DNA from: Tubulanus polymorphus
Taxonomy: Eukaryota > Animalia > Nemertea
Reading direction: 5' to 3'
Assembly (NCBI RefSeq): GCF_964204645.1
Contig: NC_134027.1
Span: 20,918,560-20,982,559, forward strand
Length of the DNA stretch: 64,000 nucleotides
The position numbers were made by a program, and so were the translations under genes. A model generated the notes under the pieces. It had not been told where the DNA came from. It worked only from the letters and a program-made list of their open reading frames with translations, and did no database searches. Each line of letters starts with the position of its first letter. Within the stretch, counting starts at the first letter, position 1. Shown here piece by piece: positions 40,856-63,025 of the stretch.

Positions 40856-40907
40856 CTAGAACGTACGGTAGTTGTGTTCTTCCCGTTCACGTCTCGTATC
40901 ATACGTA

Positions 40908-41027
40908 AGTAATTGGGAAAGTAGGCTTTCAGATCAGAGTACGAAGTACGAGACACCACTCATCACCACAAGTAATTTTTTTCCTAACACTCATCACCAC
41001 AAGTAATTTTTTTTCCTAATAAATGGG
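40908..41027 (+). repeat. Left terminal inverted repeat (120 bp)
   Basis: Exact reverse complement of 57225-57344, including T-run lengths. Contains two tandem CACTCATCACCACAAGTAAT(T)nCCTAA units and the ATG of the first ORF. Confidence 0.97.
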
Positions 41028-41349: not shown

Positions 41350-41528
41350 ATTTAAAAAAAAATAAATTAATAGAAATAATGAATATCTAGAATCCGAAAT
41401 GACTTATCTGGACAATTTAATTGCTCCACATAGATGGTGCCATAAACAGCACCCACACAGTGATAGACAAAAGTAGTGAGATATTCAATTAATTAAAAAA
41501 AATTATTTTTTTGCTTTTTTCTAAAATA

Positions 41529-41897
41529 TTAATCCATTTTTTTTATTATCAATTTTGGAATTTCAGAAGTATTTTCATTTTTGATAGCAGTTGTTTCAGA
41601 ATTATTACTATCATGAATTTTATTTGATTTCTTATACCAATTACACCCAATCAAAATGAATACAATTACAAATCCAACTGTAAAATATAGATATTTATCA
41701 AATATTCTACTATCAGAAGGAGTAGAAATAACAATATTTTCACCATTTTTATTAACATTTTTATTACTTATTTTTTCTTTTACAGCTTTTTTATATTCTT
41801 GTGATTTAATTCCTAATTGTCGAGACCATTCAATTTGTTTCTGAGTTCTCGGTTTTTTCTTCACAGTTAATTCCTTCACTTCTTTCACTTCGCTCAT
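41529..41897 (-). CDS. Polinton single-pass membrane protein (122 aa)
   Basis: TAAATG start, basic N-terminus, hydrophobic YLYFTVGFVIVFILIGC. Confidence 0.75.
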   Translation of the reverse strand: MSEVKEVKELTVKKKPRTQKQIEWSRQLGIKSQEYKKAVKEKISNKNVNKNGENIVISTPSDSRIFDKYLYFTVGFVIVFILIGCNWYKKSNKIHDSNNSETTAIKNENTSEIPKLIIKKMD

Positions 41898-42435
41898 TTA
41901 TTATAGAAATATTTTTACTTTCAATATTTGAAAATGTTATAACCCCGGTTGATAATAATGTCATAAATCCACCTAATTGAAATGATAAATATCCAATCCA
42001 CTTATTTAATTCAGTCATAACTAAATAATCATTTTTTAAATCGGAATATAATCTATTTTCATCTTCAATTGGTAGTATATAATTACATAATTTACTATAA
42101 CCTTTTACTACATTTTCTGATATCGCGTCATTAATTTTAGCTGTTCTCGCGGCTTCATAAATCTTAAATAATCTAATAATTTCAACTGATTTCATTGTAT
42201 CTAATTCATTATAAGTTAAATTTTTATCAACAAATTTTTTACATTTTCCAGATGCTATTAATATTTCTAATTGATGTTTGCAATAAAGATAATATTCATA
42301 ATTATTATTTGTTGTAACATTATTTAAAGCACCATCATCTGGAGGTAATTTTGTTTCTGTTATTCCTAAATCATCTAAAGTTTTTTCAATTGGAACATCA
42401 CCATTTTTAGATTTTATTTTCTTTTCACCTCCCAT
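41830..42435 (-). CDS. Polinton protein of unknown function (201 aa), hydrophobic C-terminal segment
   Basis: TAAATG start; WIGYLSFQLGGFMTLLSTGVITF near the C-terminus. Confidence 0.75.
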   Translation of the reverse strand: MGGEKKIKSKNGDVPIEKTLDDLGITETKLPPDDGALNNVTTNNNYEYYLYCKHQLEILIASGKCKKFVDKNLTYNELDTMKSVEIIRLFKIYEAARTAKINDAISENVVKGYSKLCNYILPIEDENRLYSDLKNDYLVMTELNKWIGYLSFQLGGFMTLLSTGVITFSNIESKNISIINERSERSEGINCEEKTENSETN

Positions 42436-42466
42436 TTATAAAACAAATAAATTAGTTGTGTTGTTG

Positions 42467-42714
42467 CAACTAGAATTCAACTAGAATGTAATTAGAATTC
42501 AACTAGATTAACAAGCTAGTTGAAATATTGTTGTTTTTGTTTATTTCTTGTTAAATCTAGTTGATTTTTGTTCCAACTACTAACAACTAGAATTCAACTA
42601 GAATGTAACTAGAATTAAACTAGATTAACAAGCTAGTTAAAATTTGATTTTTGTTACAACTACTAATAACTAGAATTCAACTAGAATTCAACTAGATTAA
42701 CAAACTAATTGAAT
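42467..42714. repeat. Internal non-coding array of 11-bp (CAACTAGAATT) units in three blocks
   Basis: Blocks start near 42467, 42584 and 42668. Each ends in AACTAGATTAACAA(G/A)CTA. Confidence 0.9.
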
Positions 42715-43323
42715 TTAAATAAATTCATATTTAAATGGGTGTTGTAATCTAAATAGTAATTTTGATCTTTTAATATTTTTCAACTTATCCATATATTCAT
42801 TATGTAAATCATGTGGAATAATGTCATTTTCCTCAAGTGCATTTTTCATTGATTTTCTATCTTTATTGTAGAATAAAACTAGAAATCTAATGTTTTCTCT
42901 AAAGTCTTTAACAATTGAATTATATTTTTGATTTAAAACCCAAGTTGTTATCCCAAAATGTCTCCCAGAGAAAGCTAAATAACATAACTCACTTTCTCTA
43001 ATTTTAGAATCATGTAAATTTGCGCAATCATCTATGATAAATAATGTATTTGATCCTTTATAAATATCAATTGCTATTTTTATACAATTATCTAAATTTT
43101 CTTTTATTGTTTTAGGATCTAATATAATAAATTTATTATTCCTAGTAATATTTCTATCATAAGTTTGATTAAATTCATATGTTGGACAAAATAATACTAT
43201 ATTATCAAAATAGTTTTTGTAAACAGTTTCTAATAAATTTAATATAAAATAAGTTTTTCCACAATTTGTTACGCCAGAAATTAACATATTATGAGGCTCA
43301 AATATGAATAATTCCTTATTCAT
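42715..43323 (-). CDS. A32/FtsK-HerA-like genome packaging ATPase
   Basis: Walker A SGVTNCGKT, Walker B LFIIDD, GRH arginine motif and downstream Q, as in A32-family ATPases. Confidence 0.9.
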   Translation of the reverse strand: MNKELFIFEPHNMLISGVTNCGKTYFILNLLETVYKNYFDNIVLFCPTYEFNQTYDRNITRNNKFIILDPKTIKENLDNCIKIAIDIYKGSNTLFIIDDCANLHDSKIRESELCYLAFSGRHFGITTWVLNQKYNSIVKDFRENIRFLVLFYNKDRKSMKNALEENDIIPHDLHNEYMDKLKNIKRSKLLFRLQHPFKYEFI

Positions 43324-44451
43324 TTATATATTTTTAATTTTACTTGATAATATCCATTCATTGAATTTATCTGGCCATCCAACCCATTTTACTAAAGAAT
43401 ATTTTTTTCTTTTAACAGTTTTTGTTTTTAGTACTTTTTCAATTTTATATTCTTGTTCTAGATTTTCAGTAGTTAAACTTAATTCTTCTTCATAAAAATA
43501 TCCATCAACTTCTTCACCATCTAAATCTTCTAATTTATAGACATATGGTTTTGTTGTTATTACCTTTTTTATTTTATATATTTCTCTAGTAAAATTTCGA
43601 TCGTATCCTTTGTCAAATATCTTTTTATACTTAGAAATTCTAACATTTTGACCAACTTTAAATTTAGGTTCACCAAAATCATCAACAAGAAATGCTCCAT
43701 ATAAATTATTCCAAACAATTTCAGCATTTTCAGGTTTTCTAGCATCAATAGGTTTCATTCCAATAGAAGAATGATAAGAATTATTATATCCTTCTATAAA
43801 TTTTGGTAAAACATCAATCCATTTATAAGTATTATTTGCTGTAAAATATTTCCACATTCTTGTTCTTAATGTTCTATTAAATCGTTCAACAACTGCTGCT
43901 TTTTTATCTGATTTTGTTGAAAAATATTTAATATTATGAAAATCTAAAAGTCCATGAACTAATGAATTATCAAATTCTTTTCCATCATCAAATTGTATTT
44001 TTTCTGGTTTTAGTTTACCACCTGAAAGAAATTTTCTTAAAACATGTGATGTTTGTGCAGCATCTTTTCTATAAAGTGGGAAGCTCCATACATAACGACT
44101 AAAAATATCAATTATATTCAATATCCACCAATAATCATTATTATCTTTTTTAAGATTTTTCATATCAATTAAATCTCCTTGCCACTGTTGATCTACATAA
44201 CTTACCATAGTTTTACGAGTTTTATATTTTCTAACAATTTTTTTATGTGTTGTATATGTTGGTTGTTCTAACATAAATTCATTTATATCTTTATATTTAA
44301 CTAAATTTTGTGGGATTATCTTATCTAATTTATCTTGTTTTACTTTACGCCATATATTTTTAGTAGAAGAATAAGCAACCGAACTCTCAGGGTTGTAATA
44401 TAAATTTCTTAAATATTGTTCTTTAGTATTAGGAGTTTTTTTACCACTCAT
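43324..44451 (-). CDS. Retroviral-like (rve) DDE integrase with C-terminal chromodomain
   Basis: WQGDL, IDIFSRY, IQFDDGKEF, VVERFNRTL catalytic motifs. The C-terminus YKIEKVL...LVKWVGWPDKFNEWI is chromodomain-like. Confidence 0.95.
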   Translation of the reverse strand: MSGKKTPNTKEQYLRNLYYNPESSVAYSSTKNIWRKVKQDKLDKIIPQNLVKYKDINEFMLEQPTYTTHKKIVRKYKTRKTMVSYVDQQWQGDLIDMKNLKKDNNDYWWILNIIDIFSRYVWSFPLYRKDAAQTSHVLRKFLSGGKLKPEKIQFDDGKEFDNSLVHGLLDFHNIKYFSTKSDKKAAVVERFNRTLRTRMWKYFTANNTYKWIDVLPKFIEGYNNSYHSSIGMKPIDARKPENAEIVWNNLYGAFLVDDFGEPKFKVGQNVRISKYKKIFDKGYDRNFTREIYKIKKVITTKPYVYKLEDLDGEEVDGYFYEEELSLTTENLEQEYKIEKVLKTKTVKRKKYSLVKWVGWPDKFNEWILSSKIKNI

Positions 44452-44481
44452 TTATATATCCTTAATTTTAACTTTATATTT

Positions 44482-45729
44482 CTAATATTGAATACTATCT
44501 AATTGTGAATTTACAATATTTAATTGTGCGTCAGATATAATATAAATGTGCATTTTAAAATTTTTGATTCCTTTATTCTTTTTCATGAATAATTGTATTC
44601 CATCTTTAGTGTTCTGTAGTTTTTTTCCAGAACCATGTAATAAGTTATCTTCAGTTGTTCTAAAATCTAACCATAATGCATATTTATTACCGGTATAATA
44701 ATCAATTTGATTAATGTTACAATTTTCAGATGATTTCACTTTTTCATTCATAAAATGTTTTCTAATTTCTGGCCATTGATCAATCATTCTCATTCCTTGA
44801 CAAAATATTTTATTCGCTATTCCTTCGATAGTTATTTCTACTTTTGTTATTTCAGGATTATAATAATTATCAACATTTATTGCACCATTAGAATATGTTG
44901 CAATAGTAAAAAATATTAATATACCTTTAATAGATCTTCTAGGAAAGTTAATATTCTCATTAATTATTTCATCATTTGCATTAATAGTTACAGTTTTAAA
45001 TTTATCAATATAATCATATAATAATGAAAATCCTTGATTGTATTGAGTTTGAATTGTGCTAGCAATATTTTCATTAGTTATTGTGTTATATTCTAAACAT
45101 ATATTCGATAATTTATAACTCATATCTTTAACAACGCTAGATAATACAATTTCATTTACAGGAGCAAATGTTATCTCAAATATAATATCTTCTTGAATTG
45201 CGTATTTATATAAAGGTGCATTATTATTTATCAATTCAAAGTCTAATGGAATTTTATATTTGCTTCCATAAATCTTTTTAATCAAATTATCTGTGGCACG
45301 AGTTACTACTGCATTATTGGCTTCAGATCTTAATTTATTATGGTTTTCCGATTGGATGCCTTGAAATATCATATTATTTCTATTTTCTTTAGTTAACCAT
45401 AAATCTTTATAATGCATAAATAAATTATAATCATCTAATGAGAAAACTGTTTCTGGACCAATCTTTATTGTTAACTTTTTAATCAAATATCTTCCAACAT
45501 TATCAACAACATAATTGTTATCATGGCCAGTTACTTTTATATCGGCTGATAAATAAATACTGTTTGGAACATAAAAAGTATTTTGTGTTAATCGAGGGAT
45601 TCTAACATATAAAGTTTCATCGGGATTAATATTTGAAGGGTTATGAGTAATTATATGATGTGATCTTTCTGCTTTAAAAGCATTAGATATTCTATGATTC
45701 TTCGAAGGACTTATATAACTCCCACTCAT
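44482..45729 (-). CDS. Probable double jelly-roll major capsid protein (415 aa)
   Basis: Size, beta-strand-like alternation, N-terminal NPSNINPDETLYVRIP / LIKKLTIKIG / YKIPLDF pattern resembling Polinton/PLV capsids, and genomic context. The fold is inferred, not computed. Confidence 0.7.
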   Translation of the reverse strand: MSGSYISPSKNHRISNAFKAERSHHIITHNPSNINPDETLYVRIPRLTQNTFYVPNSIYLSADIKVTGHDNNYVVDNVGRYLIKKLTIKIGPETVFSLDDYNLFMHYKDLWLTKENRNNMIFQGIQSENHNKLRSEANNAVVTRATDNLIKKIYGSKYKIPLDFELINNNAPLYKYAIQEDIIFEITFAPVNEIVLSSVVKDMSYKLSNICLEYNTITNENIASTIQTQYNQGFSLLYDYIDKFKTVTINANDEIINENINFPRRSIKGILIFFTIATYSNGAINVDNYYNPEITKVEITIEGIANKIFCQGMRMIDQWPEIRKHFMNEKVKSSENCNINQIDYYTGNKYALWLDFRTTEDNLLHGSGKKLQNTKDGIQLFMKKNKGIKNFKMHIYIISDAQLNIVNSQLDSIQY

Positions 45730-45773
45730 TTATTTAACAAAAAAATTAATTATTTATTTTTTGATATCATGGT

Positions 45774-47210
45774 TTACTTGATATTTTTTGATATCATATT
45801 TACTAAACCAAAAATAATAGCACTTACAACTGTAATTAAAAATAAAATAATATGTTCAGCAGCAAAGTTGATAATGTTTCCTGCAGATTTCAATATAAAA
45901 CCAACAATTGAAGCAATAACTCCTGGTAAAGCTGCAGCAGATTTCTTTGATAGTTCCCATAAATATTTTGCTAATTTCTTTAAACCATCCTTAACTTTAT
46001 CTTGTATAGAATTATTACCTGGAGGTTTATCTGGTTTGTTAGGAGTGGGAGTAGGAGTAGATTTCAAAGCATTTGATATAGCTAAACCTATTGTTGTAAA
46101 TAACATAGTAACAGATGTTAGAATTGAAAGAATTGTTATTCCTTCTAATTTAAATAATAATTTTATTCTGTCTTTCAATGATATTTTAGAATCTGGTTTT
46201 ATCAACAAATCTTTAAAAATAACTTTTAATCTATTAATATTATAATCATATGATTTTAACAATAATTTAATTTCTTCTTTTTGTAATTCTATGTTATATT
46301 CTAAATCATCTTTTTCTTTTTCTAAACGTAATTCTTTTTGCCTATATTCTATTTCATCAATTACTTGATGATCTAAATCAGACTTTAGTTGTTCTATTTC
46401 TTTATTTTTATCAGTTAATTCTTTTTCTAAAGTTCTAATTTTAAAATCTCTTATACTTTTATTATGTGCAATTTTATCAGATGCAAGTCTTATACTAATA
46501 ATTTCTCTAATTGCTTTATCAGAAAATATATTTAAATCTTCTAATTGTTGATTTGTTGCATCAAGTAATCCATTTGGTAAAAGTTTTACAGTTTGAACTT
46601 TATTTGATTTAAGTTTACTATTTTTGGAAGTTATATTCTGTTCAGAAGTTGTTTCTGTTTCTAAATTTTCATTAATTATCTTAAAAAATTTAGCATTTCT
46701 TTGTTTAAATTCTTTTATATTATAATCTCTTTCTTCTTGTGTAACATCAATTATAGCATCATTTTTTATTTTCTTAATTCTAGATTGTTCTAATAAATTA
46801 AAAGTTGATTGTGTTATTATTTTATCACTATTTTTAAGATTTGAAATCTTAAAATAATAGTCGCCTTTCAATTTCCAATAATATTCACCATTTAAAAATT
46901 TTAAATCTTCTACTAAATGATCCATACCTTTATTTGTTATATTGAAACCAGATTTTTCTAATATTGGTTTAAATTTATGAATAATTTCATTATAATTGTA
47001 TTCTTTTTCTGTTATTTCTGGTACTTCATTTTCAATACTTATCTTTGAACGTGCTTTGTCAATAAATTGGGGTGTAGTTAAATTAGAATTATATGCTGAT
47101 TCATTACCATCATTAAAACTTGTTTCATCAAAATCAGGTGGTTGTTCATCAGTTATACCAGGTTCATCAAAAGGATCCATTCCAATATCTTCTACACCTT
47201 CTACATCCAT
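45774..47210 (-). CDS. Coiled-coil protein with C-terminal membrane segments (478 aa)
   Basis: Acidic N-terminus, EK-rich heptad region, hydrophobic GITILSILTSVTMLFTTIGLAI and IILFLITVVSAIIFGLV. Confidence 0.8.
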   Translation of the reverse strand: MDVEGVEDIGMDPFDEPGITDEQPPDFDETSFNDGNESAYNSNLTTPQFIDKARSKISIENEVPEITEKEYNYNEIIHKFKPILEKSGFNITNKGMDHLVEDLKFLNGEYYWKLKGDYYFKISNLKNSDKIITQSTFNLLEQSRIKKIKNDAIIDVTQEERDYNIKEFKQRNAKFFKIINENLETETTSEQNITSKNSKLKSNKVQTVKLLPNGLLDATNQQLEDLNIFSDKAIREIISIRLASDKIAHNKSIRDFKIRTLEKELTDKNKEIEQLKSDLDHQVIDEIEYRQKELRLEKEKDDLEYNIELQKEEIKLLLKSYDYNINRLKVIFKDLLIKPDSKISLKDRIKLLFKLEGITILSILTSVTMLFTTIGLAISNALKSTPTPTPNKPDKPPGNNSIQDKVKDGLKKLAKYLWELSKKSAAALPGVIASIVGFILKSAGNIINFAAEHIILFLITVVSAIIFGLVNMISKNIK

Positions 47211-47226
47211 TTATATAATAATAAAA

Positions 47227-48528
47227 TTAAAATTTAAAATATAATATTCCTCCGATTACAATTCCTATACAAGTTATAGCTAATTTAGTATTTTCATGGG
47301 ATTTATTATCATCATTTAGTTTAATTATATCATGTTGAATATTATCAGTTCTATTATTTTCTGATGTATTATAATCTTTTATTTTAGAATCATTATTTAA
47401 TTTAATATTCTTAGTTTTAGTTTCTGTTGATTGAATGTGTTTTTTATTTTTTTCACCTTCCATTAATTTTGGAGCAGTAATAATCTTTTTATTTATATCA
47501 TTCAATCCAAATGAATTATTTATTGTTGCAGTTTTAATTAGATTATTATAACCAATTATATTTCCCATCTTCAATACTAAATCATTAGAAATAATTAATA
47601 GATTAGGGCCTATACAATAATTAAGTCTTACATGAGATTTATCTAAATATTTTTGATATCTTATAATGTTTTCTGGAATCGATCTATTTTTATCATTATG
47701 TATGGAATCTTCAAATAAAACTTTAAACTGTTTCTGCGCATCGAATGAAGTGTTATCATTTCCAATTATTGGGGATCTTGTTTCAACTTGAGCGCCTAAA
47801 ATACATATCAAATAAATTCTAATAGATTGATTTATTCTTTGTATACCTGATTTTGTAAAACCTTCACCATTTTCTAAAATGAAATTAACCCAACCATTAT
47901 TATTATCAATTTTATAATTATGATAAGCTCCAATTCTATGCATATAATCAATTCTTTTTATTTCATACTGTTCACCGACACCTTGCAATTTACCATGCGC
48001 TCTAAAATCGGAATTAATATTTATATTAAATTCATTACATATTTTATAAAACTTGGATATATTAATATTATTATCCAATTCTTTAAAATATTTAGACCCG
48101 GGTAAAGGACATTCTAATTCATTTAATATTATTCTGATTTGAAAATATGTGTGAAATCTAAATATTGTGTGAATTAATTTTAAATCAGAATACTTCAAAT
48201 TTTTATCTAAGTTATTTAAATGATCATTCCAACTAATTCCACATCCTGTTGTTGCACAATAAACAGCAAAATTTAATTGATTCTGCCAATATTTCATATT
48301 AGATTTTACTTTATATATATGATATTCATCTCGAGTAAAAGTAACTTCATATGTATTAAATATATTTTCCATTTTAGAAATAAAAAACTGTGATTCATTA
48401 ACATAAATTTCTAAATTAGTTAATGAATTTAAAACTATATTTTTATATGTAATATTTTTCTTAAAATCTATTGCTGGAATATTATATTTAATTGATTTAT
48501 TATATTGGAAAGCTTTTGGAAACCCCAT
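47227..48528 (-). CDS. Polinton protein of unknown function with C-terminal membrane anchor (433 aa)
   Basis: TAAATG start, WQNQLNFAVYCATTGCG core, terminal LAITCIGIVIGGILYF. Confidence 0.8.
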   Translation of the reverse strand: MGFPKAFQYNKSIKYNIPAIDFKKNITYKNIVLNSLTNLEIYVNESQFFISKMENIFNTYEVTFTRDEYHIYKVKSNMKYWQNQLNFAVYCATTGCGISWNDHLNNLDKNLKYSDLKLIHTIFRFHTYFQIRIILNELECPLPGSKYFKELDNNINISKFYKICNEFNININSDFRAHGKLQGVGEQYEIKRIDYMHRIGAYHNYKIDNNNGWVNFILENGEGFTKSGIQRINQSIRIYLICILGAQVETRSPIIGNDNTSFDAQKQFKVLFEDSIHNDKNRSIPENIIRYQKYLDKSHVRLNYCIGPNLLIISNDLVLKMGNIIGYNNLIKTATINNSFGLNDINKKIITAPKLMEGEKNKKHIQSTETKTKNIKLNNDSKIKDYNTSENNRTDNIQHDIIKLNDDNKSHENTKLAITCIGIVIGGILYFKF

Positions 48529-48544
48529 TTATATAACTAAAAAA

Positions 48545-48979
48545 TTAATAATTTATTAATTCTTTTAATAATTTATCTTGTTCTTCAACTGTTATATGAC
48601 CATTTAAACTTATTATATAATCTAGTGTGTTCTTTAATTTATTAATTTCTTTTATATTAGTTTTAATTTTTTCTTTATTACTTTTTATATTTAATTTTGA
48701 ACTTATACCAGTTAAAACACTTGAACTTAATCCTTACACACCAATTGATATAGCTAAAGGTGTTAATGGACTGAATATTGCTAGAAATGTTATTACAGAA
48801 CTAATTGTAACCGAACCACTTATAATCAAATAATATATAATTTTACTTTTTAAATATTTTTTCTTTTTTATCTTTAAGTCACTTTCAAATTCTAATATTT
48901 GTTTTTCTAAATATGTTTTTAATTTAGTTTTATTTATATCATGAGGAATAATATCAATACTATCAACTTTATCTTCCAT
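48545..48979 (-). pseudogene. Two-TM membrane protein gene with one in-frame TAA (48734-48736)
   Basis: The frame continues past the stop (GLSSSVLTGISSKL...) to TAA at 48545, which is the first triplet of the next gene's upstream motif. Confidence 0.75.
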
Positions 48980-48998
48980 TTATTTAGAATAAAAATTA

Positions 48999-49421
48999 CT
49001 AATTAGTAAACTTATAAGCAACAAATATAACAATAATAGTTCCACCTAAAATCCAAATTATTTCATATTTCTGTTGTTCTTTACTCGGGGTATAATAATC
49101 TGATAATTTAGGTTTGTATAGATTTAATTTTTCTTTATTTGTTACTGCGTTATATAAACTCATTGCATCATCAACTGATTGAAAATCTCTATGTGAAATC
49201 TTCTGATCATATAATTCTTTATTGATGTAATCCATATAGTTTTGTCTCTTTTCTCTATATTCTTCTGCAGCTTTATTGTATTTCTCTAACGCTAAGTTAT
49301 GTCTTCTTTGTTCTCCTAATGAACTATTTTTATCAATATGTTTAAATAAATAACCACCACCAGTAAATGCTAAAGCGTTAACAATTGCCGATCCTATAAT
49401 AGTTATAATTGCAGAAGCCAT
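48999..49421 (-). CDS. Polinton membrane protein (140 aa), hydrophobic at both ends
   Basis: MASAIITIIGSAIVNALAFTGGGYLF ... IIWILGGTIIVIFVAY; TAAATG start. Confidence 0.8.
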   Translation of the reverse strand: MASAIITIIGSAIVNALAFTGGGYLFKHIDKNSSLGEQRRHNLALEKYNKAAEEYREKRQNYMDYINKELYDQKISHRDFQSVDDAMSLYNAVTNKEKLNLYKPKLSDYYTPSKEQQKYEIIWILGGTIIVIFVAYKFTN

Positions 49422-49445
49422 TTATTTAACAAAAAAATTATGCAT

Positions 49446-49667
49446 TTATATGGGAGGAATATATTTTTGTTTTTCCAAATAATCAATAGTTAAATTGGAT
49501 AAAGTAACTGCTAATGTTAATTTTAGAATATCATTTATATCAAATCTATCAACATTAACACTTCCCATTTTGAATACTTTTTTTAATACCATTGAATAAC
49601 CAACAGTTCCAACTGATAGTAATGCGCCATTATATAATCCAGTTATTATCCACTTATTATCACTCAT
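49446..49667 (-). CDS. Small hydrophobic Polinton protein (73 aa)
   Basis: TAAATG start overlapping the upstream stop codon; two hydrophobic stretches. Confidence 0.7.
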   Translation of the reverse strand: MSDNKWIITGLYNGALLSVGTVGYSMVLKKVFKMGSVNVDRFDINDILKLTLAVTLSNLTIDYLEKQKYIPPI

Positions 49668-50027
49668 TTATTTATCAAAAAAATTACTATCATCAAAATA
49701 TTTAGTTAACTTATTTATGATTAATTCAACATTTATTTCATTACTAGTTTTATGATTATCATATATTTCGGTTAATATGTTTTTAATATCATCGATGATA
49801 AAATCTTCATCTAATTCATAAAATCTTAAAGATTCTCTAATTAAATTAGTAATCTTTTCTACATTTAAAATTTCTTTATCTATTGTTGTTTCATACTCAA
49901 ATGTTGTTTCATTAGAAAATGTAATATTTTTGATATGTGTTATTACATCATTAATGTTAAATTTCATTTCTTTCTCACGTTTAAAATCAAATCCAAAACA
50001 TATACTCGGTCCAACAGTTATATTCAT
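49668..50027 (-). CDS. Polinton protein of unknown function (119 aa)
   Basis: TAAATG start with the full upstream motif; acidic, no motif recognised. Confidence 0.7.
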   Translation of the reverse strand: MNITVGPSICFGFDFKREKEMKFNINDVITHIKNITFSNETTFEYETTIDKEILNVEKITNLIRESLRFYELDEDFIIDDIKNILTEIYDNHKTSNEINVELIINKLTKYFDDSNFFDK

Positions 50028-50043
50028 TTATAAAGGTGAAAAA

Positions 50044-50802
50044 TTACTCTTTACATCTTATAACTAATTCATAAATTACAGGAAAGTTATTCAAATCAAT
50101 TAAATAACCATTATGATTTCTTATTTCTAATTTAAAATTATTGAAATGTGGAATACAAGGTTTGAAATCACATTCGGTTAAATTATAATTTATTTGCGTT
50201 CCAAATTGTTTGACATTTTTTAATGGTAAAATATTTAATAAACCAGAATTACAAATTGTATCTTTAGTTGCTTCAAATGTTTTTGTAGGATCGATTAAAT
50301 TGCAATAAATATAAAAGTGTGTAAAAGGTATTATATTTGAGTTACCTTCTGCGTATGCTGTAACGGTATCTGGTGCAATTCCTAACAGTTTAGCTAAAGG
50401 TTTTCTTATTGTAAATTTAAATTGTTCGTCATTAGCTAACCTAATCTTTATTTTATTAGAACTAGCACTTTTTAAAATTCTAATACTAAATCCGGAATCA
50501 CTTCCTAATTTAGCTCGAGCTTTTCTATTAATTTCTTGTGTTAATGTATCTAAATTATATAATCCTGGTTTTAAATATATAAAAAACCATTTATTCCTTT
50601 TTTTGTAAAAGATTGAAAAAATTAAATGTTCTAGACTTTTATCCGATATATTATAAAAAGAATTACATAAACTTATATTAACTAATTTTAAATCTACACA
50701 ATTCTTGAATTCTCTATCTAATTGTACTAGTAAATTATGAGATTTATAATTTGTAAGTTTTCTAGAATCAATAAATATTCTGTATTCTTTTAATTCTACC
50801 AT
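50044..50802 (-). CDS. Probable minor capsid (penton, single jelly-roll) protein (252 aa)
   Basis: IFIDS start, SFYNI, PGLYN, FYIYCNLI and terminal IRNHNGYLIDLNN..V.YEL pattern typical of Polinton/virophage pentons. Confidence 0.7.
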   Translation of the reverse strand: MVELKEYRIFIDSRKLTNYKSHNLLVQLDREFKNCVDLKLVNISLCNSFYNISDKSLEHLIFSIFYKKRNKWFFIYLKPGLYNLDTLTQEINRKARAKLGSDSGFSIRILKSASSNKIKIRLANDEQFKFTIRKPLAKLLGIAPDTVTAYAEGNSNIIPFTHFYIYCNLIDPTKTFEATKDTICNSGLLNILPLKNVKQFGTQINYNLTECDFKPCIPHFNNFKLEIRNHNGYLIDLNNFPVIYELVIRCKE

Positions 50803-50870
50803 TATTTATAACATAAAAAAATTACCGCTCATCACTAAAAATTAATTTTAATAAAATTTTTCCTTAATAA

Positions 50871-52169
50871 ATGGATGAGAAGATAGCATGCGAAATTTGT
50901 GGTGAACTTCTAAGAAAAAGTAATAAGGCTCGACATATGAAAAAACATGATGAAAATTATAAACCCCCTAAAATAAACTGTCCAAAATGTAATAAATTAT
51001 TCTCAAGAAATTATGTTAAAAAACATTCAGAGAAGTGTAGAATTAATGGTGCAACGGCTAATGTTGATAGTAATTCTGCTGAAGTTGAACCTGAAGTTAT
51101 TTGGAAAAGACCTTTCTTATTCTATGATAAGGATAATATAAAAGATCATTTCTGTGAGCCTTGTCAAGTAAAATATAGCCCTGAAAATATAGAAGATTGG
51201 GAGAATCATCAATTTCGTAAAGCACATATAGATAAAATTTCTAATAAATTTGAAACTGAATTCAATGAAAGAAAAAATAATTTATTAGAAAAAATAAAAT
51301 ATGAGAAAACGTTACCAGATAATAAAGAAACAGTTGAAAAGTTAGAAAAACAATATAATGAATTAACAAGAAAAACATATTATTGTAAATATTGTAAATT
51401 GATTATTACAACAAGTAATTCAAATCTACATAATAGAACAATAAAACATAAAGAAAACGTAAGAAAATACCAAGAGCTTAATGAAGATCTATTACCAAGA
51501 AATTATAAACAAAAATGCCCACAATGTAGTTATGCGACCTTAAGGCAAGAAGGTACTGTGTTATTTTGTGTTGAATGTGGATGGCAAAAGAATTTATGGG
51601 GTGAAGAAAAAACTAGAGATTTTCTCATAGAACCAAAATTAAATTATCTAGATGAAATTTTTAAAATATTTTCTATAGAAGATCATACACCAGAATATAT
51701 GCAATGGCTTGAAAAAATGAAAATAATAGAAAATAAAAATGGTGAAATAACTAAAAAAGATATTATAAAAACAATTATTCCACCAACATTTAACACAAAA
51801 CAAAAGAAAATGTATTTATATTTATTATTTAACGATTATTATGAAAAACCTAAATTAACAGAAGAAGATATGGAAAATATAAAAAAAATATTTAAACAAA
51901 TATTAATGTATCATTTGGAAAATAGAATAACAGATTCAATAAATTATGAATTCTTTTTAAATAAGATTGTAAATTATTTAAACCTAGATATTATAATTCC
52001 ATTTGATGAATTAACAAACAAAAAGAAACAAAGAGAGCGAGATGAAATGTGGAACAAGATAGAACTTTATTTAAATGAGAAAAATGGAATGGAAGAAGAA
52101 CCTGAACAATTAAATGAAAATGAAGAAGCCAATAGTGATTTCGAGTTTGATGATATAGATCCATTTTAA
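50871..52169 (+). CDS. Zinc-finger protein with C-terminal poxvirus/NCLDV late transcription factor VLTF3-like domain (432 aa)
   Basis: Four N-terminal C2H2-like fingers and a Zn ribbon CPQC...CVECG. The tail SINYEFFLNKIVNYL...LTNKKKQRERDEMWNKI resembles VLTF3 C-termini. Confidence 0.7.
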   Translation: MDEKIACEICGELLRKSNKARHMKKHDENYKPPKINCPKCNKLFSRNYVKKHSEKCRINGATANVDSNSAEVEPEVIWKRPFLFYDKDNIKDHFCEPCQVKYSPENIEDWENHQFRKAHIDKISNKFETEFNERKNNLLEKIKYEKTLPDNKETVEKLEKQYNELTRKTYYCKYCKLIITTSNSNLHNRTIKHKENVRKYQELNEDLLPRNYKQKCPQCSYATLRQEGTVLFCVECGWQKNLWGEEKTRDFLIEPKLNYLDEIFKIFSIEDHTPEYMQWLEKMKIIENKNGEITKKDIIKTIIPPTFNTKQKKMYLYLLFNDYYEKPKLTEEDMENIKKIFKQILMYHLENRITDSINYEFFLNKIVNYLNLDIIIPFDELTNKKKQRERDEMWNKIELYLNEKNGMEEEPEQLNENEEANSDFEFDDIDPF

Positions 52170-55100
52170 TAACCATAAGGTAATGTTTTTATACCATCAT
52201 CTGAAATATGCCTTTTATCATCAAATGGATTTAAACTAGTTTTTTCAACTTCATTAATGTACATCTCATGATCTTCTGATCTTAAACAATTCATCTTGTG
52301 TTTCATTACAATTGATTTATATAAACACTTTATATAATCTTGAAATTCTATATGTTTATCAACCACATGTTTTGTTATTCCTTTTAACTTTTTAGCTTCA
52401 TGATCTTTTGTTCTGTAACTATACATTTTACTTCTTATCCCAACAAATTCAATCATTTCATCACCTCCTAATTCATCTTTAAATTTACCAGGAATCTTTT
52501 TATTATCATTGCTAAATAGTTCATGATCTTTAGGATAATTGCTAAAATCAAAATGATGTTTTAATGTTTTTAAGTCTTTTGTTATGTCATTTGTCTTGAT
52601 TTTTAGTATGTAACTGTCAGTATTTTTTTGGATTAATGGGAACCCAGAATTGAATGTTCCATCATCTGTTGATAAATCATAAACATAGTCAGTTGGGTTA
52701 TATATTTCAAATAAATCTTTAACTTCTTCTGTTAATTCTTTTTCTACATGCCTTAAATTAAAACAATTTGGTTTAGATTTAATTAATTCTATATTCATAT
52801 TAAATCCTAATGAACTGCATAACACATTTAACCCACTTATTGCACATTTTCCTTTCTGTGCAAAGGTTATCGTTTTATCCTTTATAAATTTTTTAGTACC
52901 ATCGGCTGCGTAGAACCCAATGAAGAACCATTTTCTAAGATTATATTCTGAATTTAATATATAATCTGGTACTATTTTTTCTTTAGTTGAAGTATTACTT
53001 TTCACTATTGCATGAATATAGAATTCATCATTATATTTTATAGCAAAATCTTTAGGATTATTTACAAGTATTCTATAAACCGCGGATGATTTCATAACAT
53101 CCATGATTCTAAATGTTTTATGTGAATAAACTTCTTCACAGAATTTCTTAATTCTTTCTAATAATTTTAAGTCTTGATTGCATAAATACCAACAATATTT
53201 ATTACCCCAAACATATTTATACACACCTGCTGAACCATCACCCATGAAAAATCCTTTGATAAAATATTCTTTTTCTTCCAATGTTTCGGGTTCTATATTA
53301 TAAATATTATCAATTATTTCATCAAATGACATATGATTCATTCTTGGGAAAAATCTTTTATGTAATAATTCATCTCCAATTTTTATATCAGTTGGTTTTA
53401 TTTCATCACCATTTCGTTTAATTAAACTGTGGTCTTCAGTAACATCTACAAATCCTAATTTAGTTCTAACTCTATAGATTTTCTTATTTGTTTTATGTCT
53501 AATAATATTCTTTAATTTTTTCCATCCATTTCTTGTCCAAACATCTATTAAACCATTTATTTGTATTAGTTCTTTTTCACCATATGAAAAATAAGATTTA
53601 TTTTGATTAGGAATTATTTCTGAAATTCTTCTAATTAATATTTGGTTATTGTATTTTAATAATATTGGGGTGTCAGCTGTTACAGAATCGAAGTATAGAA
53701 TTTCTATATGTTTTTCCCCAAACAATGGTTGTAATACATTGTAATAAAAATCATACATTAATAATTTTGATATTTCTAAAACTGTTGAACCAATGAAAAT
53801 GGGTTTATTAAATTTCATTGACGTTCTTTTTAATTTTACTGCTGTTAAATAATCTTCAAATCTTTTATTTCCTAAATGTCTAGGACTTGATTGTAGGTGT
53901 CTCAATCGTTCAGAATTATTTACTAATTCAATATCATTTCTATTTCTAATATTTTCACATGTTTTACCATAAAAACTATTGTTCATTAATTTGAAGAAAT
54001 CTTTTTCAAAATCTGTTTTTGATATGGTTCTCTGTTGAGTATTGAAATCTATATATTTTTCTAACCACTTTGATTGATTAAATTCAATATATCTATGTAC
54101 TTTCTTTAATTTCATTCCTTGTTTTAGATAAAATTTTAACATTCTATAATGAACAATATAATTGTATTTATTATTTTGAGTAAGTATTAATTTTTCTGTA
54201 AAAACATGATCTTTCGGTTTTATTTTCTTCTGGTATTCACTTAAATAACTATCATCTACAGTTAAATGTTCTGGGCAATAAGGTAAGTTTCTTGTTTTAA
54301 ACTTTATGTTATCAGGATATTCTAAATCAACTACAAAGAAATAACCAATTGGTGCTTCATCTTCTAAACTCATAATTGCGCTTTCCCAATTAGTTTTATC
54401 ATCATTTTCAACTTCTGTTAATATAAAATTTTTATATGGTTGAGGTTGCATCATTGCCCAACCATATAAATTATTGGCGTCAATATATAATAATTTATAT
54501 TCATCATTTGCTTTAAAATACCTATCTCCCATAACACCACTAATTCCACCTCTAATTGATTTTTCAAATAATAAAACCATATCTGGTTCTTTTAATAAAT
54601 CTAATTCTACATTTGTATATTTTAAACCACATTGCCAGGTTAAACCAGGACTTGAATAACAATAACAAGGATCAACATTAAAATGATTCAAATTAACTTC
54701 TCTAAATTTTTCAAATATGTCAGCCAATATCATAACATCTGATTTTAAATATAAATCAACTAATTCGCCATGATTTTTCATCTTAAAATGGTTCCAAATA
54801 TTTAATGTTCTATTAAACACTTCGTCTTTCACATACTCCTCTTTTAATTTATCATAAAATTGATCTTTTAATAATTCTGTTACATTAAAATCATCATGTG
54901 TTTTATAAAATGAATAAGGAATTGCGCCTTTATATCTCAATAATTTAAAATCTTGTTCATTTGGATAATAATATCGAGTTATAACAAAATCATTATCAAC
55001 TAAACTTTTTGATAAATTATCTAATGAACTTGCTAGAAATCTATAAGAATCTAAAAATCTAATGCAACCAAATTGAAATGAAATATAATTTTCAGATGTT

Positions 55101-57229
55101 TTAGCTAATAGTTTAAAATAATATTTTCTTACATTTGCTTCATTCATAGCATTATATTCTTCTATTTCTTGATTAATTGCGCCCAATTTTCCTGATAATT
55201 GTTTTATAAATAGATGGGTATCATAGCCTGATAAATTATGAAATAATATTGGTACGAAATTAACTTTCTTAGCTTGTAAATTGCAATCTTCATGAGCAGC
55301 TCCACGATATTTTGAATTCAAATGATCATGATCTCTAACTCTTTTATCAAATGAATAAAAACGTTTTTCACAATAACAACAATGAGTTGCATAATTAAAA
55401 TCAATTTCATCTTCTTTTGTCATAACTATTCTTTTATTTTTGTTTAATAATTTTGTAAAATCACTTTCTAATTCAATCATTTTATCACAAAAATCATTAA
55501 CTACATTTTCACCTCTAAAAGAAATATATTGACTTTCATATAATTCGGGATAATTTGATTTGATGTAAATTCCATAAGCAGCAGCTCTTTGATGAACTTT
55601 TTTTAATTGTATTTATAATTGGCGGGTCTTGTATTGTGTCTTCATTTAATTCATTTCCTTTATCCATTGATTTTAATAATTGCTTTTTGTTATATATTTC
55701 TTTTCTATCTTGATCAGTTAATTCTTTATTCAACGATTCAAAATCCCCATAAATTACAAATGGAACAATATTTTTAAATTTATGATTAGTAAATTTCAAT
55801 TTATAATCTTTTTCTGTTGGCATTATTAATTTACAAAAATCTTTATTATCACATAATTCTTTATGTTTTAATAATGTATTCTCAGTCATAAATTTGGATA
55901 AACATTTTCTACATAGATAAATTTTATCATGATGATCACTTTCTGTTCTAAAGAATAAATCAATTTGTTTTAACCACATATAATGTTCATTTTCATCTTT
56001 TTTGTAATATAACAAATCTATAGCATTTTCATCATCATAATATTCTGTTAAATATAAAGCTTCCAATGTATAATCTTTAATATTTTCACCTTTTGTCTTT
56101 GGTAATTGCATTAATTCGAATACATTTATTTTTAAATTATTAACTTTTTCTATTTTAGGAATCATTTTTATAGTTACTGGATATTGATCAATTTTATATA
56201 ATGTTTCATATTTCCGATAATCTGTTATTCTACAAACATTTTCCTGTGTTGGATGTAAACAACTAATAATTGACCATAGAAAACATTTATAATCTTCATT
56301 TTGAACATTTATTACTGCTTTTGTTGTAAACGGTAATTTGATATAACTTGATGCTTTCATATCCTTTTCTGTTGTAAAGTTTGAATCATTTTTAAACATT
56401 TTATTACTTTTTGATGTTTTATTCCTTTTTGTATTATAAACATTTAAATCTAAATATATGATTTCATTCAATGTTAAGCCAGAACCCTCAAAATATCTTT
56501 CTTCAATATGACGTTTAAATTCATTTAATATTTTTTCTAACTTCTCTTTTATTTGTATTTTTGAAATTATTTCTTCAGAGTGTGTTTGAATATTATAATC
56601 CATTTTTTCTTCTGACTTTATAAAACTTACTTTCCCAGAGATACTAATTTTTGGATATTCAACATCTGTTATCAAATCTAGTATTTTTTCTATTATTTCA
56701 TTAAATTTACTATAATCTTCTATTGTTGTGTCTTAAAAAATCTAAATATAATAGCTGCAGGACCAATTTTACTATGTAATGTTTCTAAGATTTCAATTGT
56801 ATCTTTTATTTCTAGTGAATCAATATAATTTCTAATATTTTCCATGTAAGGTTTATTTGAAATGGATTTAGTTTTTGAAGTTGATTCTTTTACTTGTTGA
56901 GGTTTATCATCAAAATAATCTATTCCTAAAACATTATTTCTCAAATTTTGATGGTGTTTTTCTGTTTCGAGATGTTTATTATAATTCCTTTTTGTTATAA
57001 ATTCATCACAAACTTCACATTTTATTTCATCCACATTCATATTTTCTAATCGTTCTTTTCTTTCAATGGAATTTTCTGGAGTTTCAAAATCTATAACATT
57101 TTTTATATGATTTGAAGATTTTTCATGTTTAGATTTATTAGATTTATCGATGTATTTTTTACAATATTGACAATAATATTGATTTTTATTGATATTATTG
57201 TTTTCTAGTTGGTGTTCATTCTCCCCCAT
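52166..57229 (-). pseudogene. Protein-primed family B DNA polymerase (pPolB) gene, broken into three ORFs by two single-base frameshifts, intein-containing
   Basis: ExoI VIYGDFES (ORF 55536-56675), ExoII FHNLSGYD, ExoIII YLKSDV, PolA YIDANNLYG, PolB FKLMNNSFYGK, PolC LYFD/TDS. EndoVII-like CCYC...VRDHDH..GAAHEDCN insert. The frames join at ~56732 and ~55600. Confidence 0.93.
52622..53686 (-). mobile_element. Intein (355 aa) with LAGLIDADG homing endonuclease inserted in pPolB motif C
   Basis: YFD|SVTADTPILL...VDVTEDHSL (block B)...FIKGFFMGDG...FFIGFYAADG (two LAGLIDADG motifs)...VYDLST (block F)...IQKN|TDS. Confidence 0.93.
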
Positions 57230-57344
57230 TTATTAGGAAAAAAAATTACTTGTGGTGATGAGTGTTAGGAAAAAAATTACTTGTGGTGATGAGTGGTGTC
57301 TCGTACTTCGTACTCTGATCTGAAAGCCTACTTTCCCAATTACT
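57225..57344 (-). repeat. Right terminal inverted repeat (120 bp)
   Basis: Exact inverse of 40908-41027. Supplies the ATG of the polymerase N-terminal ORF. Confidence 0.97.
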
Positions 57345-57740
57345 TACGTACGCCAAGATTCGCGAGATTTGCTATATTGATGACTTTTCCTTATCTTGTA
57401 CCCGTCTTGCTGATGCATTTCTTTCCGACCAGTTTTTCGGATGTTACTATGAAGTATTTGACCAATTAACATATTTCATCGTTATCGCCATTAATTACCT
57501 TTACATTGTACCTTTAACGTTGATTGTTATTTCAAATTCTGTTGTCGTTCAGTTATTCAAGGGTTCGAAAATGGTTTCGACTGATACGAAAACCACAAAA
57601 TCGAAACGTACAACAATAATGCTTGTAACAGTTTCACTCGCATTTGAAAAATGATTCCCGTAGTTTTAAGTAGGAGCTTGGCACTAAGCTGCTGACCAGT
57701 AGCCAACCGCCAAAGGCATGTAGTTCAGTTAGTTCAGTTA

Positions 57741-62134: not shown

Positions 62135-63025
62135 TTACAAGAACAAATCATCTAAATATTCCTCAAATTCGTCGTCCTTTGATTTTTCAACGTCCAATTT
62201 CACCGGTCCTTCCCAAATCGAAGTCGACGCCTGCGAGTCGACTGTTTTTACGTTTTTCTCGGCAGATTTCTCGCCCACAGACTGTTTTTCGGTCGTCCCC
62301 GTCGATCGACGACTCGTCGACGGACCTTTGACGACTTCGCGTTTTCGACTGTTGTAATTCAACTTATACGAACACCGCGGGCACAAACGTAATTTCACCA
62401 ACGCGTTTTTCTTTTCGTTCGCTTCTACGTACGCGAAGTTCACTTCCCAACTGCGCAGCCCTTCGCTTTCCGCGCACTTCTTATTCCCGCAAACGAACTG
62501 CCCCTTGCCGGCAATCAGCTCCTTCTCGATTCTCCAACGCAACGCGATTTTATTCTCTTTGTACCGACTCAAATCGGCAATGCAATATTCCTTGAACAAC
62601 TTATCGTAATATTTCTTCGCCAGTTTTTTCTCCCACGTCAACGAATCGTCGTCCCGTTCGTCGTCGTCGTCCCAGAGAAATCGATGGTTCTCTCTGATGA
62701 TGTCCAAGTCGGTTTTATCGCGCGACGAGTCGCGTCCGAAGTCGCTCTTGCTACCGTTGTAGTACATCAGATAATTGTTCACCATCATCTTGTGACGGGA
62801 GTAAGCGTCCATGCTCAGAACGTGGAACCGTCGTATACGCGCTTCTTCCCGGTCGCTTTCCGATTCGTGCAGTCGTTTCGAAGGCGGTACCGCCGCGACG
62901 TCAGACGATTTCGCGCGATCGTCTCCGGCGAGGTCGCGGCGTCGTTTTCGCTTATTTTCGACTTCGGAATCGTTTTCGAATTCCGAGCCGTAATCACCGC
63001 CTTGGTGCAGCGTAACGAAATCCAT
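62135..63025 (-). CDS. FRA10AC1: FRA10AC1 homologue (spliceosome-associated protein), single coding exon, ~296 aa
   Basis: AYSRHK, DLDIIRENHRFLW, WEKKLAKKYYDKLFKEYCIADLSRYKENK.ALRWR, GKGQFVCGNKKC, LRSWEVNFAY.E..EKKNALVKLRLC..CSYKLN, FEEYLDDLFL. A splice acceptor lies 9 nt upstream of the ATG. Confidence 0.93.
   Translation of the reverse strand: MDFVTLHQGGDYGSEFENDSEVENKRKRRRDLAGDDRAKSSDVAAVPPSKRLHESESDREEARIRRFHVLSMDAYSRHKMMVNNYLMYYNGSKSDFGRDSSRDKTDLDIIRENHRFLWDDDDERDDDSLTWEKKLAKKYYDKLFKEYCIADLSRYKENKIALRWRIEKELIAGKGQFVCGNKKCAESEGLRSWEVNFAYVEANEKKNALVKLRLCPRCSYKLNYNSRKREVVKGPSTSRRSTGTTEKQSVGEKSAEKNVKTVDSQASTSIWEGPVKLDVEKSKDDEFEEYLDDLFL

What the first reader, a model, noticed from the sequence alone, without database searches (positions are those of the whole stretch)
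52622..53686. Full-length homing-endonuclease intein in the polymerase active site, sitting in an animal chromosome
Seen: motif C (YxDTDS) is split as LYFD|S...KN|TDS by an open 355-codon insert with Ser1, TxDH block B, two LAGLIDADG motifs, terminal Asn with a penultimate Lys instead of the usual His, and Thr+1. Established: this is the pol-c site used by archaeal and mimivirus PolB inteins, and inteins are not a normal feature of animal host genes. Inference: a selfish element nested in a selfish element, possibly acquired from a co-infecting large DNA virus and able to home between Polinton copies within one genome.
Basis: partly seen in the sequence, partly recalled or inferred. Interest (0 to 1): 0.82.

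Follow-up and report, generated by a model that had tools for sequence, protein, structure and literature searches.

The report
Homing intein in animal Polinton polymerase
A virus-like Polinton transposon integrated in an invertebrate animal's chromosome carries, in the active site of its DNA polymerase gene, a complete intein (a segment predicted to splice itself out of the protein) with a DNA-cutting domain; sister copies occur with and without it, so it likely spreads by homing, although inteins have been described as absent from animal genomes.

Summary
Confirmed. 52622-53686 (-) is a stop-free 355-codon insert that splits polymerase motif C (YFD|S...KN|TDS). It has the intein splicing blocks and two intact LAGLIDADG motifs, and its model matches solved homing-endonuclease inteins. 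It lies in a 16,437-bp Polinton (AG...CT ends, 123-bp inverted repeats with one mismatch, 6-bp target duplication) among animal genes. DNA reads of the same species show sister copies lacking exactly these 1,065 bases; intein depth is 37-50% of flank depth. At least seven other Polinton-type polymerases carry related inteins. These form one clade (100/100) among giant-virus-type pol-c inteins, and intein identity tracks polymerase identity (r 0.93). So this is an old Polinton-resident intein family, not a recent capture from a giant virus. Presence/absence between polymerases 97-99.5% identical, a foreign-looking flank tract and one jump to another polymerase class point to homing. Splicing and cleavage are untested. 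The penultimate Lys is common in the family. This copy's polymerase gene is broken twice upstream. Ten literature searches found no Polinton Hint/LAGLIDADG intein; the scan had not noted it elsewhere.

The parts
52622..53686 (-). Intein, 355 aa: Hint domain plus tandem LAGLIDADG endonuclease; Ser1 ... Lys-Asn355
   Evidence: boundaries from reads that skip exactly 1065 nt
53660..53686 (-). Block A (SVTADTPIL), Ser1 nucleophile
   Evidence: same block in relatives
53429..53440 (-). Block B TEDH (TxxH)
   Evidence: T83, D85, H86 invariant in 45 aligned inteins
53234..53254 (-). First LAGLIDADG motif (GFFMGDG) with its Asp
52898..52918 (-). Second LAGLIDADG motif (GFYAADG) with its Asp
   Evidence: PF14528 over residues 252-306
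52673..52687 (-). Block F (YVYDL) with its Asp
   Evidence: V335, Y336, D337 invariant
53687..53695 (-). N-extein half of polymerase motif C (YFD)
52613..52621 (-). C-extein half of motif C (TDS), Thr+1
52166..55480 (-). Main open piece of the protein-primed family B polymerase gene (exonuclease and polymerase motifs, intein inside); motif A 54464-54487, motif B 53966-53992
   Evidence: PF03175 E 1.6e-18; motifs
55536..57229 (-). Upstream part of the same polymerase gene, in two further reading frames; the gene is broken near 56.73 kb and near 55.6 kb
   Evidence: tblastn of whole-length homologues P0158-P0160 covers three frames; ORFs 55536-56603 and 56720-57229
40908..57344 (.). Whole Polinton/Maverick element, 16,437 bp, about 23.5% GC against 37-42% in the flanks
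   Evidence: 413 reads end at 57344 with mixed flanks, agreement 0.36
40908..41030 (+). Left terminal inverted repeat, 123 bp, begins AG
57222..57344 (-). Right terminal inverted repeat, 1 mismatch to the left one
40902..40907 (+). 6-bp target-site duplication, left copy
57345..57350 (+). 6-bp target-site duplication, right copy (identical)
43324..44451 (-). Retroviral-type integrase with chromodomain
   Evidence: PF00665 E 7.9e-9, PF00385 E 2.3e-4
42715..43323 (-). A32-type packaging ATPase
   Evidence: PF04665 E 8.3e-13
44482..45729 (-). Candidate double-jelly-roll major capsid protein (lead only)
   Evidence: Atlas neighbours at 0.97-0.98; some clusters carry PF21738, PF16903 or PF04451 on 10-24% of members; recognition score low; no Pfam hit
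62135..63025 (-). Host gene FRA10AC1, used to place the host among animals

Best explanation
The insert is a complete intein with a tandem LAGLIDADG endonuclease that splits the catalytic motif of a Polinton's DNA polymerase; it likely splices itself out to restore the enzyme, and likely persists by homing, in which its nuclease is predicted to cut intein-free sister copies and repair copies the intein across. Shown: the anatomy, the fold by model, the exact presence/absence among sister copies, the membership of a Polinton-specific intein clade. Inferred: (1) splicing by the standard Ser1 / TxxH / Asn / Thr+1 route, required because motif C holds catalytic aspartates; (2) cleavage of the empty motif-C site; (3) gene conversion when intein-plus and intein-minus Polinton DNA share a nucleus, during extrachromosomal replication or between integrated copies; (4) a single old entry into Polintons from the pol-c intein pool of large DNA viruses, then co-descent with the polymerases, with repeated loss and regain and at least one move into another polymerase class. 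This particular copy has a broken polymerase gene, so the activity would come from sister copies or from an internal start.
For: All splicing blocks and both endonuclease Asp motifs are present here and in 8 of 8 full-length Polinton inteins examined, which are only 42-77% identical. The model matches homing-endonuclease inteins. In DNA run X5, from another study than the best holders, 38 reads skip exactly 1065 nt and 37 more skip a net 1065 nt; depth steps at both boundaries, ratio 0.37 by medians and 0.50 at the 53687 junction. In the protein collection, P0139 (intein) and P0142 (empty) are 99.5% and 100% identical in the exteins; P0003 and five of six empty cluster members are 97-98.5% identical in the N-extein, the sixth 94%. 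In that family the intein-bearing allele matches empty relatives at 93-100% outside about -10 to +45 residues but at 50-67% from -10 to +15, where other families reach 87% on the C side: the pattern expected of a co-converted flank. Intein state needs 11 changes on a 49-row extein tree, at least 8 forced by starred branches. P0005 has a 42-49% identical intein inside the Polinton clade but exteins that barely align.
Against: No splicing, cleavage or expression data. The Pfam Intein_splicing score is under its cut-off. Scattered presence/absence also fits repeated precise loss without gain; counts of changes cannot tell gain from loss, and I chose the 49 rows (quick tree only). The divergent flank in the P0003 family may instead mean that surviving empty alleles resist cleavage. 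At 85% likeness the skip joint was not among the 15 of 92 joints shown; it appeared at 80% on a shorter stretch, so the empty copies may belong to sister subfamilies; all joint reads come from one run. The nesting of P0005 among the other seven is not significant (AU p 0.082). The sister group of the Polinton clade is unresolved (70/86 for the GFPL viral group). The hosts of the other Polinton-type hits are unknown. This copy's gene is broken twice.
Confidence: 0.72

Rival explanations
1. The intein splices but no longer homes: it entered the common ancestor of these polymerases, was inherited vertically and was lost precisely many times.
For: Intein and extein identities are strongly correlated (r 0.93); the pairs P0003/P0004 and P0139/P0010/P0011 group together in both trees. 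111 of the 120 closest polymerases are empty.
Against: Both endonuclease motifs are kept in 8 of 8 inteins at 42-77% identity, with no mini-intein among them, though my search favoured full-length ones. A foreign-looking flank tract surrounds the intein in the P0003 family. P0005 carries the intein in another polymerase class.
Confidence: 0.12
2. The endonuclease mainly serves the element as a weapon: intein-bearing Polintons cut the polymerase gene of co-resident empty Polintons and outcompete them, and empty families answer by changing the site.
For: Empty alleles differ from intein-bearing ones mostly right at the site; many empty polymerases have variant motif-C residues such as CDS, TDA or TDG; 37 empty-allele reads have other letters at the junction.
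Against: The same pattern follows from co-conversion. P0142 is empty with a flank identical to its intein-bearing sister. No direct data. Not exclusive of homing.
Confidence: 0.08
3. This element captured the intein recently from a co-infecting giant virus.
For: 104 of the 120 listed relatives sit at YGD sites typical of RNA-primed PolB; the best loci in the viral collection are giant-virus MAG contigs at 43%; the closest viral models are phycodnavirus, pandoravirus, marseillevirus and megavirus PolB inteins. The four closest polymerases are empty.
Against: The five best hits are Polinton-type polymerases, 46-64%; a fragment with Polinton-type C-extein is 75% identical (P0398). The Polinton clade has 100/100 support. 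GC of the intein (25.4%) matches the exteins (24-25%), which is weak evidence.
Confidence: 0.04
4. The intein is dead: with Lys in place of the penultimate His it cannot splice, and the insert inactivated the polymerase.
For: Loss of the penultimate His can impair splicing (PMC5874633, passages). This copy's gene is broken upstream.
Against: Lys is the commonest penultimate residue in the family, 54 of 105, including essential viral polymerases. The element has near-identical repeats and an intact target duplication, so it inserted recently. 7 of 15 listed members of the 136-member P0003 cluster are full-length and intein-bearing.
Confidence: 0.04

Closest known systems
pol-c allele inteins of family B DNA polymerases (Mimivirus PolB intein at YGD|TDS, archaeal position III; PMC549080, passages; phycodnavirus, pandoravirus and megavirus PolB inteins)
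   Same: Same motif-C insertion point, Ser1/Asn/Thr+1, Hint plus LAGLIDADG layout; 30-43% identity to giant-virus-type relatives.
   Different: The host is a protein-primed Polinton polymerase (PF03175), not an RNA-primed PolB; it lies in an animal chromosome; the Polinton inteins form their own clade.
Homing-endonuclease inteins of known structure: PI-PkoII, TliVMA, PhoVMA, PI-PfuI, PI-SceI
   Same: Same predicted two-part fold (E 5e-16 to 4e-10).
   Different: Only 10-18% identical; compact (355 aa); activity here untested.
Inteins in viral-like DNA polymerases on nuclear scaffolds of Klebsormidium, Tetrabaena and Hondaea, and the Anaeramoeba nuclear inteins (PMC10710043, passages)
   Same: An intein reaches a eukaryotic nuclear genome inside a viral polymerase gene.
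   Different: Those hosts are algae and protists and the carriers are giant-virus-like genes. Here the carrier is a multi-copy integrating Polinton in an animal, with empty target alleles in the same species.
HNH and VSR nuclease insertions in Polinton pPolB (10.1101/2023.08.22.554363, passages), described as possible 'intein invasions' in PMC11071308 (passage)
   Same: A nuclease domain inserted in a Polinton polymerase; this polymerase class also has a weak Endonuclease_7-like domain (E 0.036 here, 4.6e-7 in P0139).
   Different: Those passages describe bare nuclease domains; the preprint has no occurrence of 'LAGLIDADG' or 'intein'. This insert has a Hint domain, splits the active site and is present or absent as a precise unit.
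Inteins of invertebrate iridoviruses (14 inteins in Iridoviridae; PMC5784728, passages)
   Same: Inteins in a DNA virus of animals.
   Different: [quoted passage not shown]

Membership tests
Class 1 intein | In-frame insert absent from homologues of the host protein | tested here: met
   111 of 120 closest polymerases are empty at the site, 7 carry the intein, 2 end before it; reads skip exactly 1065 nt
Class 1 intein | Ser/Cys at position 1, block B TxxH, block F Asp, terminal Asn, Cys/Ser/Thr at +1 | tested here: met
   S1, T83-E-D-H86, D337, N355, T+1
Class 1 intein | Penultimate His (usual, not universal) | tested here: not met
   Lys354; shared by 54 of 105 relatives
Class 1 intein | Hint domain by profile or fold | tested here: met
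   TIGR01445 above cut-off; Foldseek to solved inteins; PF14890 E 1.1e-6 but under cut-off
Class 1 intein | Self-splicing activity | not testable with these tools
   needs a reporter assay
LAGLIDADG homing endonuclease (intein type) | Two LAGLIDADG helices, each ending in an acidic residue | tested here: met
   GFFMGDG and GFYAADG, both at ends of helices in the model; PF14528 above cut-off; match to I-DmoI
LAGLIDADG homing endonuclease (intein type) | Cleaves the intein-free allele | not testable with these tools
   indirect signs only
pol-c intein allele | Insertion between YxD and TDS of PolB motif C, and kinship with inteins at that site | tested here: met
   YFD|TDS against YGD|TDS in Mimivirus; 104 of 120 relatives at YGD sites. 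Archaeal pol-c inteins were not put in the tree.
Polinton/Maverick | Terminal inverted repeats with AG...CT ends and 6-bp target duplication (features recalled) | tested here: met
Polinton/Maverick | Protein-primed PolB, retroviral-type integrase, packaging ATPase | tested here: met
   the polymerase gene is broken twice in this copy
Polinton/Maverick | Double-jelly-roll major capsid protein | tested here: inconclusive
   Atlas lead for 44482-45729; no Pfam hit
Polinton/Maverick | Adenain-type maturation protease | tested here: inconclusive
   No Pfam hit among the 15 element ORFs scanned besides the intein; ORF 47227-48528 has no Atlas hit
Named Polinton polymerase class (pPolB1/pPolB2, Alpha/Beta) | Branching with reference polymerases of the class | not tested
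   No named reference sequences in hand; only shown that P0005 and this polymerase belong to different classes

The most novel reading that the evidence does not exclude
Polintons host their own old family of homing inteins, and in this animal the endonuclease converts intein-free Polinton copies inside the germline chromosomes: a natural homing system at work in an animal genome, able to cross between polymerase classes, and a standing route by which protein splicing can reach animal host genes.
Probability: 0.35. Interest if true: 0.9.

Novelty: new variant of a known kind. Interest (0 to 1): 0.76.

Why it matters
Papers on eukaryotic inteins speak of their absence from metazoan genomes (PMC5784728) and call that absence 'a puzzle yet to be explained' (PMC6805012). 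Here a complete endonuclease-bearing intein sits in an animal chromosome in many copies, beside empty target alleles. That narrows the puzzle: inteins can be inherited in animal chromosomes, so the barrier would lie in reaching or being tolerated in host genes. It makes homing in an animal testable from long reads alone. It shows exchange between the large-DNA-virus intein pool and Polintons, and between Polinton polymerase classes, so it can serve as a marker of co-infection history. The limit: the intein is in an endogenous virus-like element, not a host gene, and inteins of free animal viruses (iridoviruses) and of endogenous viral genes in algae are known.

Tried and rejected
No whole genome is held for this window, so copies could not be counted or mapped locus by locus; reads were used instead. 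No RNA holder was listed, and the one run guessed to be RNA gave no laid contigs: no verdict on expression. Scans of viral and metagenome contigs returned 37 loci and the best 80 of 132, none above 43% over the full length; I did not examine their host genes beyond L001's ORF list and contig names, so they give no DNA context for the other Polinton inteins. The representatives search (2102 hits, 150 listed) added only one Polinton-type protein among the 139 new rows, P0398. The shared C-terminal GFPL motif suggested one viral group as donor; the trees do not establish this (separate branches; 70/86). P0012, a PolB with a Pol-delta-type C4 zinc finger, was sister at 91 but not. Careful trees for the 105-row and 49-row sets did not finish; quick trees are cited; 16 of 121 rows were dropped because the boundary motifs were not found. 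Codon positions of 40 listed read differences inside the intein (21 third, 14 first, 5 second) lean towards purifying selection, but these are the best-supported rows of a much longer list, so I put no weight on them. PDB sequence search gave two weak hits. No second Polinton piece was found in the window. The idea that the penultimate Lys is a special adaptation was rejected. Earlier scan notes held no Polinton intein.

Full report
Observation. The stretch 52622-53686 on the minus strand gives 355 residues without a stop. It lies in the ORF 52166-55480 between ...EILYFD and TDSYILK, so it splits motif C of a family B polymerase (PF03175, E 1.6e-18). It starts with Ser, has TEDH at residue 83, GFFMGDG at 145, GFYAADG at 257 and YVYDL at 334, and ends Lys-Asn. 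TIGR01445 and LAGLIDADG_3 score above their cut-offs; Pfam Intein_splicing gives E 1.1e-6 but stays under its cut-off. A model built on 45 aligned inteins has pLDDT 86.9. It matches PI-PkoII, TliVMA, PhoVMA, PI-PfuI, PI-SceI and I-DmoI among solved structures and giant-virus PolB inteins among viral models, best E 1e-30. The penultimate Lys is real but ordinary for the family: 54 of 105 bounded inteins have it (16 of 121 rows were dropped for missing boundary motifs).

The element and the host. The intein lies in a 16,437-bp element, 40908-57344, with AG...CT ends, 123-bp inverted repeats that differ at one base, and an identical 6-bp duplication on both sides. It is 23.5% GC against 37-42% in the flanks. 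It encodes an integrase with chromodomain and an A32 ATPase and a candidate jelly-roll capsid protein (lead only). This is a young Polinton insertion. Whole-length homologues show that the polymerase gene runs from about 57.2 kb to 52166 in three frames, broken near 56.73 kb and 55.6 kb; most sister reads differ from this copy at both places. The flanks hold two rhodopsin-type GPCR genes and FRA10AC1. Every FRA10AC1 hit with an organism name among the 120 listed (of 1763) is an animal, the best being a chiton, bivalves and a nemertean at 53-57%; the protein is on record on a 27.8-Mb contig. The host is an invertebrate, possibly a lophotrochozoan; this was not resolved further.

Sister copies with and without the intein. 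Four runs of one study hold 44-62% of the gene's words, and a raw-read DNA run from another study carries the same species label. In that run 413 reads end at 57344 with mixed flanks, as expected of many insertion sites. On 52440-53870 at 80% likeness, 38 reads join 52621 to 53687, skipping exactly the 1065 nt, and 37 more skip a net 1065 nt with eight other letters at the junction. Depth falls at both boundaries; intein to flank is 0.37 by medians and 0.50 at the 53687 junction. This is a rough measure, since divergence also lowers depth. Against this: at 85% likeness on the longer stretch the joint was not among the 15 of 92 rows shown, although the depth step was there, so the empty copies may be sister subfamilies; and the joint reads come from one run. 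These are DNA reads, so the skip is not RNA splicing.

A family of Polinton inteins. A search with the intein region gave 326 hits among 4170 candidates. The five best, and three more, are Polinton-type polymerases with the intein at the same site: P0002 (64%), P0003, P0004, P0005, P0006, P0010, P0011 and the partial P0089. Seven of these eight match this element's N-extein at 40-55%. The rest are mostly RNA-primed PolB at 43% or less; 104 of the 120 listed have YGD before the intein; the best viral loci are giant-virus MAG contigs. The eight full-length Polinton inteins form one clade in all three trees: 99 in the 105-row quick tree, 100/100 in the 44-row and 21-row careful trees of rows I chose. 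Their sister group is unresolved. Among the seven hosts of the same polymerase class, intein identity follows extein identity (65/61, 66/67, 77/80, 59/53%), Mantel r 0.93, 6 of 5040 permutations. The family is therefore an old resident of Polintons, and a recent capture by this element from a giant virus is not supported. P0005 is the exception: its intein is 42-49% identical to the others and inside the clade, but its N-extein aligns only over 27-126 residues at 21-38%. It is a protein-primed PolB of another class (PF03175, E 9e-32). Its nesting among the seven is not significant (AU p 0.082), but its place in the Polinton clade means the intein crossed between classes, or predates their split and was far better conserved than its hosts.

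Signs of mobility. A search with the N-extein listed 120 of 6325 hits: 111 are empty, 7 carry the intein and 2 end before the site (24 of the 111 were first flagged 'other' because of variant motif residues). The four closest polymerases (70-82% in the N-extein) are empty. In the 136-member cluster of P0003, 7 of 15 listed members carry the intein, 6 are empty and 2 lack the site; in the 121-member cluster of P0006, P0139 (intein) and P0142 (empty) are 99.5% and 100% identical in the exteins. On a 49-row N-extein tree the state changes 11 times, as often as in shuffles (11.6), with at least 8 forced by starred branches (rows chosen by me, quick tree, gain and loss not separable). In the P0003 family the intein-bearing allele is 93-100% identical to eight empty relatives outside about -10 to +45 residues but 50-67% from -10 to +15, where other families reach 87% on the C side (87 of 100 other-family rows usable). 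This fits co-conversion of flanks from a foreign donor, or survival of resistant empty alleles. Both endonuclease motifs keep their Asp in 8 of 8 inteins. The hosts of these other elements are unknown; the P0003 cluster lies on contigs of 57 kb to 1 Mb.

Mechanism. Motif C carries catalytic aspartates (established for family B polymerases, recalled), so the precursor must splice. The standard route is available: Ser1 N-O shift aided by block B, transfer to Thr+1, Asn cyclisation (PMC5874633, passages). The freed endonuclease is predicted to cut the empty motif-C site, and repair from an intein-bearing copy would carry the intein and some flank across. Whether this happens between replicating extrachromosomal genomes or between integrated copies is open. 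Confidence 0.72; rivals are passive inheritance with loss (0.12), interference between elements (0.08), recent capture (0.04) and a dead intein (0.04).

Literature. Ten searches (listings and abstract starts) returned no paper that describes a Hint/LAGLIDADG intein in a Polinton polymerase or in an animal chromosome. I saw passages only, by term search, of: PMC11071308 (suggests that nuclease insertions in pPolB stem from 'intein invasions'; I did not check which paper its reference 10 is), 10.1101/2023.08.22.554363 (HNH and VSR domains, no 'LAGLIDADG'), PMC8502044 (no 'intein'), PMC5784728 (absence from metazoan genomes, inteins in Iridoviridae), PMC6805012 ('a puzzle yet to be explained'), PMC10710043 (viral-like polymerase inteins on algal and protist nuclear scaffolds), PMC549080 (pol-c site), PMC5874633, PMC12220804, PMC3671162, PMC13768754, PMC5718144 and PMC10991399 (a flatworm cox2 insert judged not to be an intein). 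I read no supplements; the sequence sets of the Polinton surveys, Repbase entries and subscription papers could hold such inteins. Four look-ups of earlier scan notes found no Polinton intein; they list group I introns in flatworm Polintons (e1-8583675, unchecked), and one note gave the identifier of PMC8502044.

Verdict. A real and apparently undescribed variant of a known kind: a pol-c homing intein that has become a Polinton resident and is carried, polymorphic, in an animal genome. Interest 0.76.

Noticed in passing
window 55536-57229 (-): The polymerase gene is broken near 56.73 kb and 55.6 kb although the repeats are 99% identical. Most reads of sister copies differ from this copy at both places, so the breaks are copy-specific decay or assembly error.
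   Followed up: partly
window 40908-57344: This copy is atypical of its family in run X5: 1,573 of 22,232 laid reads are 99% or more alike over 51800-57800. It may be a minority subfamily, or the run is from a divergent individual.
   Followed up: no
proteins P0128-P0135 and P0173-P0273: Many empty Polinton polymerases have variant motif-C residues after the first Asp (CDS, TDA, TDG), unusual for so conserved a motif; possibly escape from the endonuclease.
   Followed up: partly
proteins P0025, P0007, P0102, P0104, P0116, P0121: Inteins of the same family sit in a DHFR-thymidylate synthase (P0025) and in type II topoisomerases at sites ending D|S...N|TD: non-allelic spread to look-alike sites.
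   Followed up: no
proteins P0111 and P0012: A related intein is at the same site in a protein named Pol delta of Chloropicon primus (P0111) and in a PolB with a Pol-delta-type C4 zinc finger (P0012).
   Followed up: partly
window 62135-63025 (-): FRA10AC1 is a single 296-aa ORF that covers its homologues end to end, so it is intronless here.
   Followed up: no
window 3925-4929 and 15489-16490 (+): Two intronless rhodopsin-family GPCR genes, 93% identical; a third GPCR-like ORF at 2-565 has no Pfam hit.
   Followed up: partly
window 5678-8385 (-) and 18820-22133 (-): LINE-like remnants: RVT_1 at 19860-22133; the ORFs at 5678-8385 look like ORF1 and endonuclease pieces by eye, not tested.
   Followed up: no
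window 47227-48528 (-), 45774-47210 (-), 50871-52169 (+): Three large element ORFs of no assigned function; no maturation protease was recognised in the element.
   Followed up: partly
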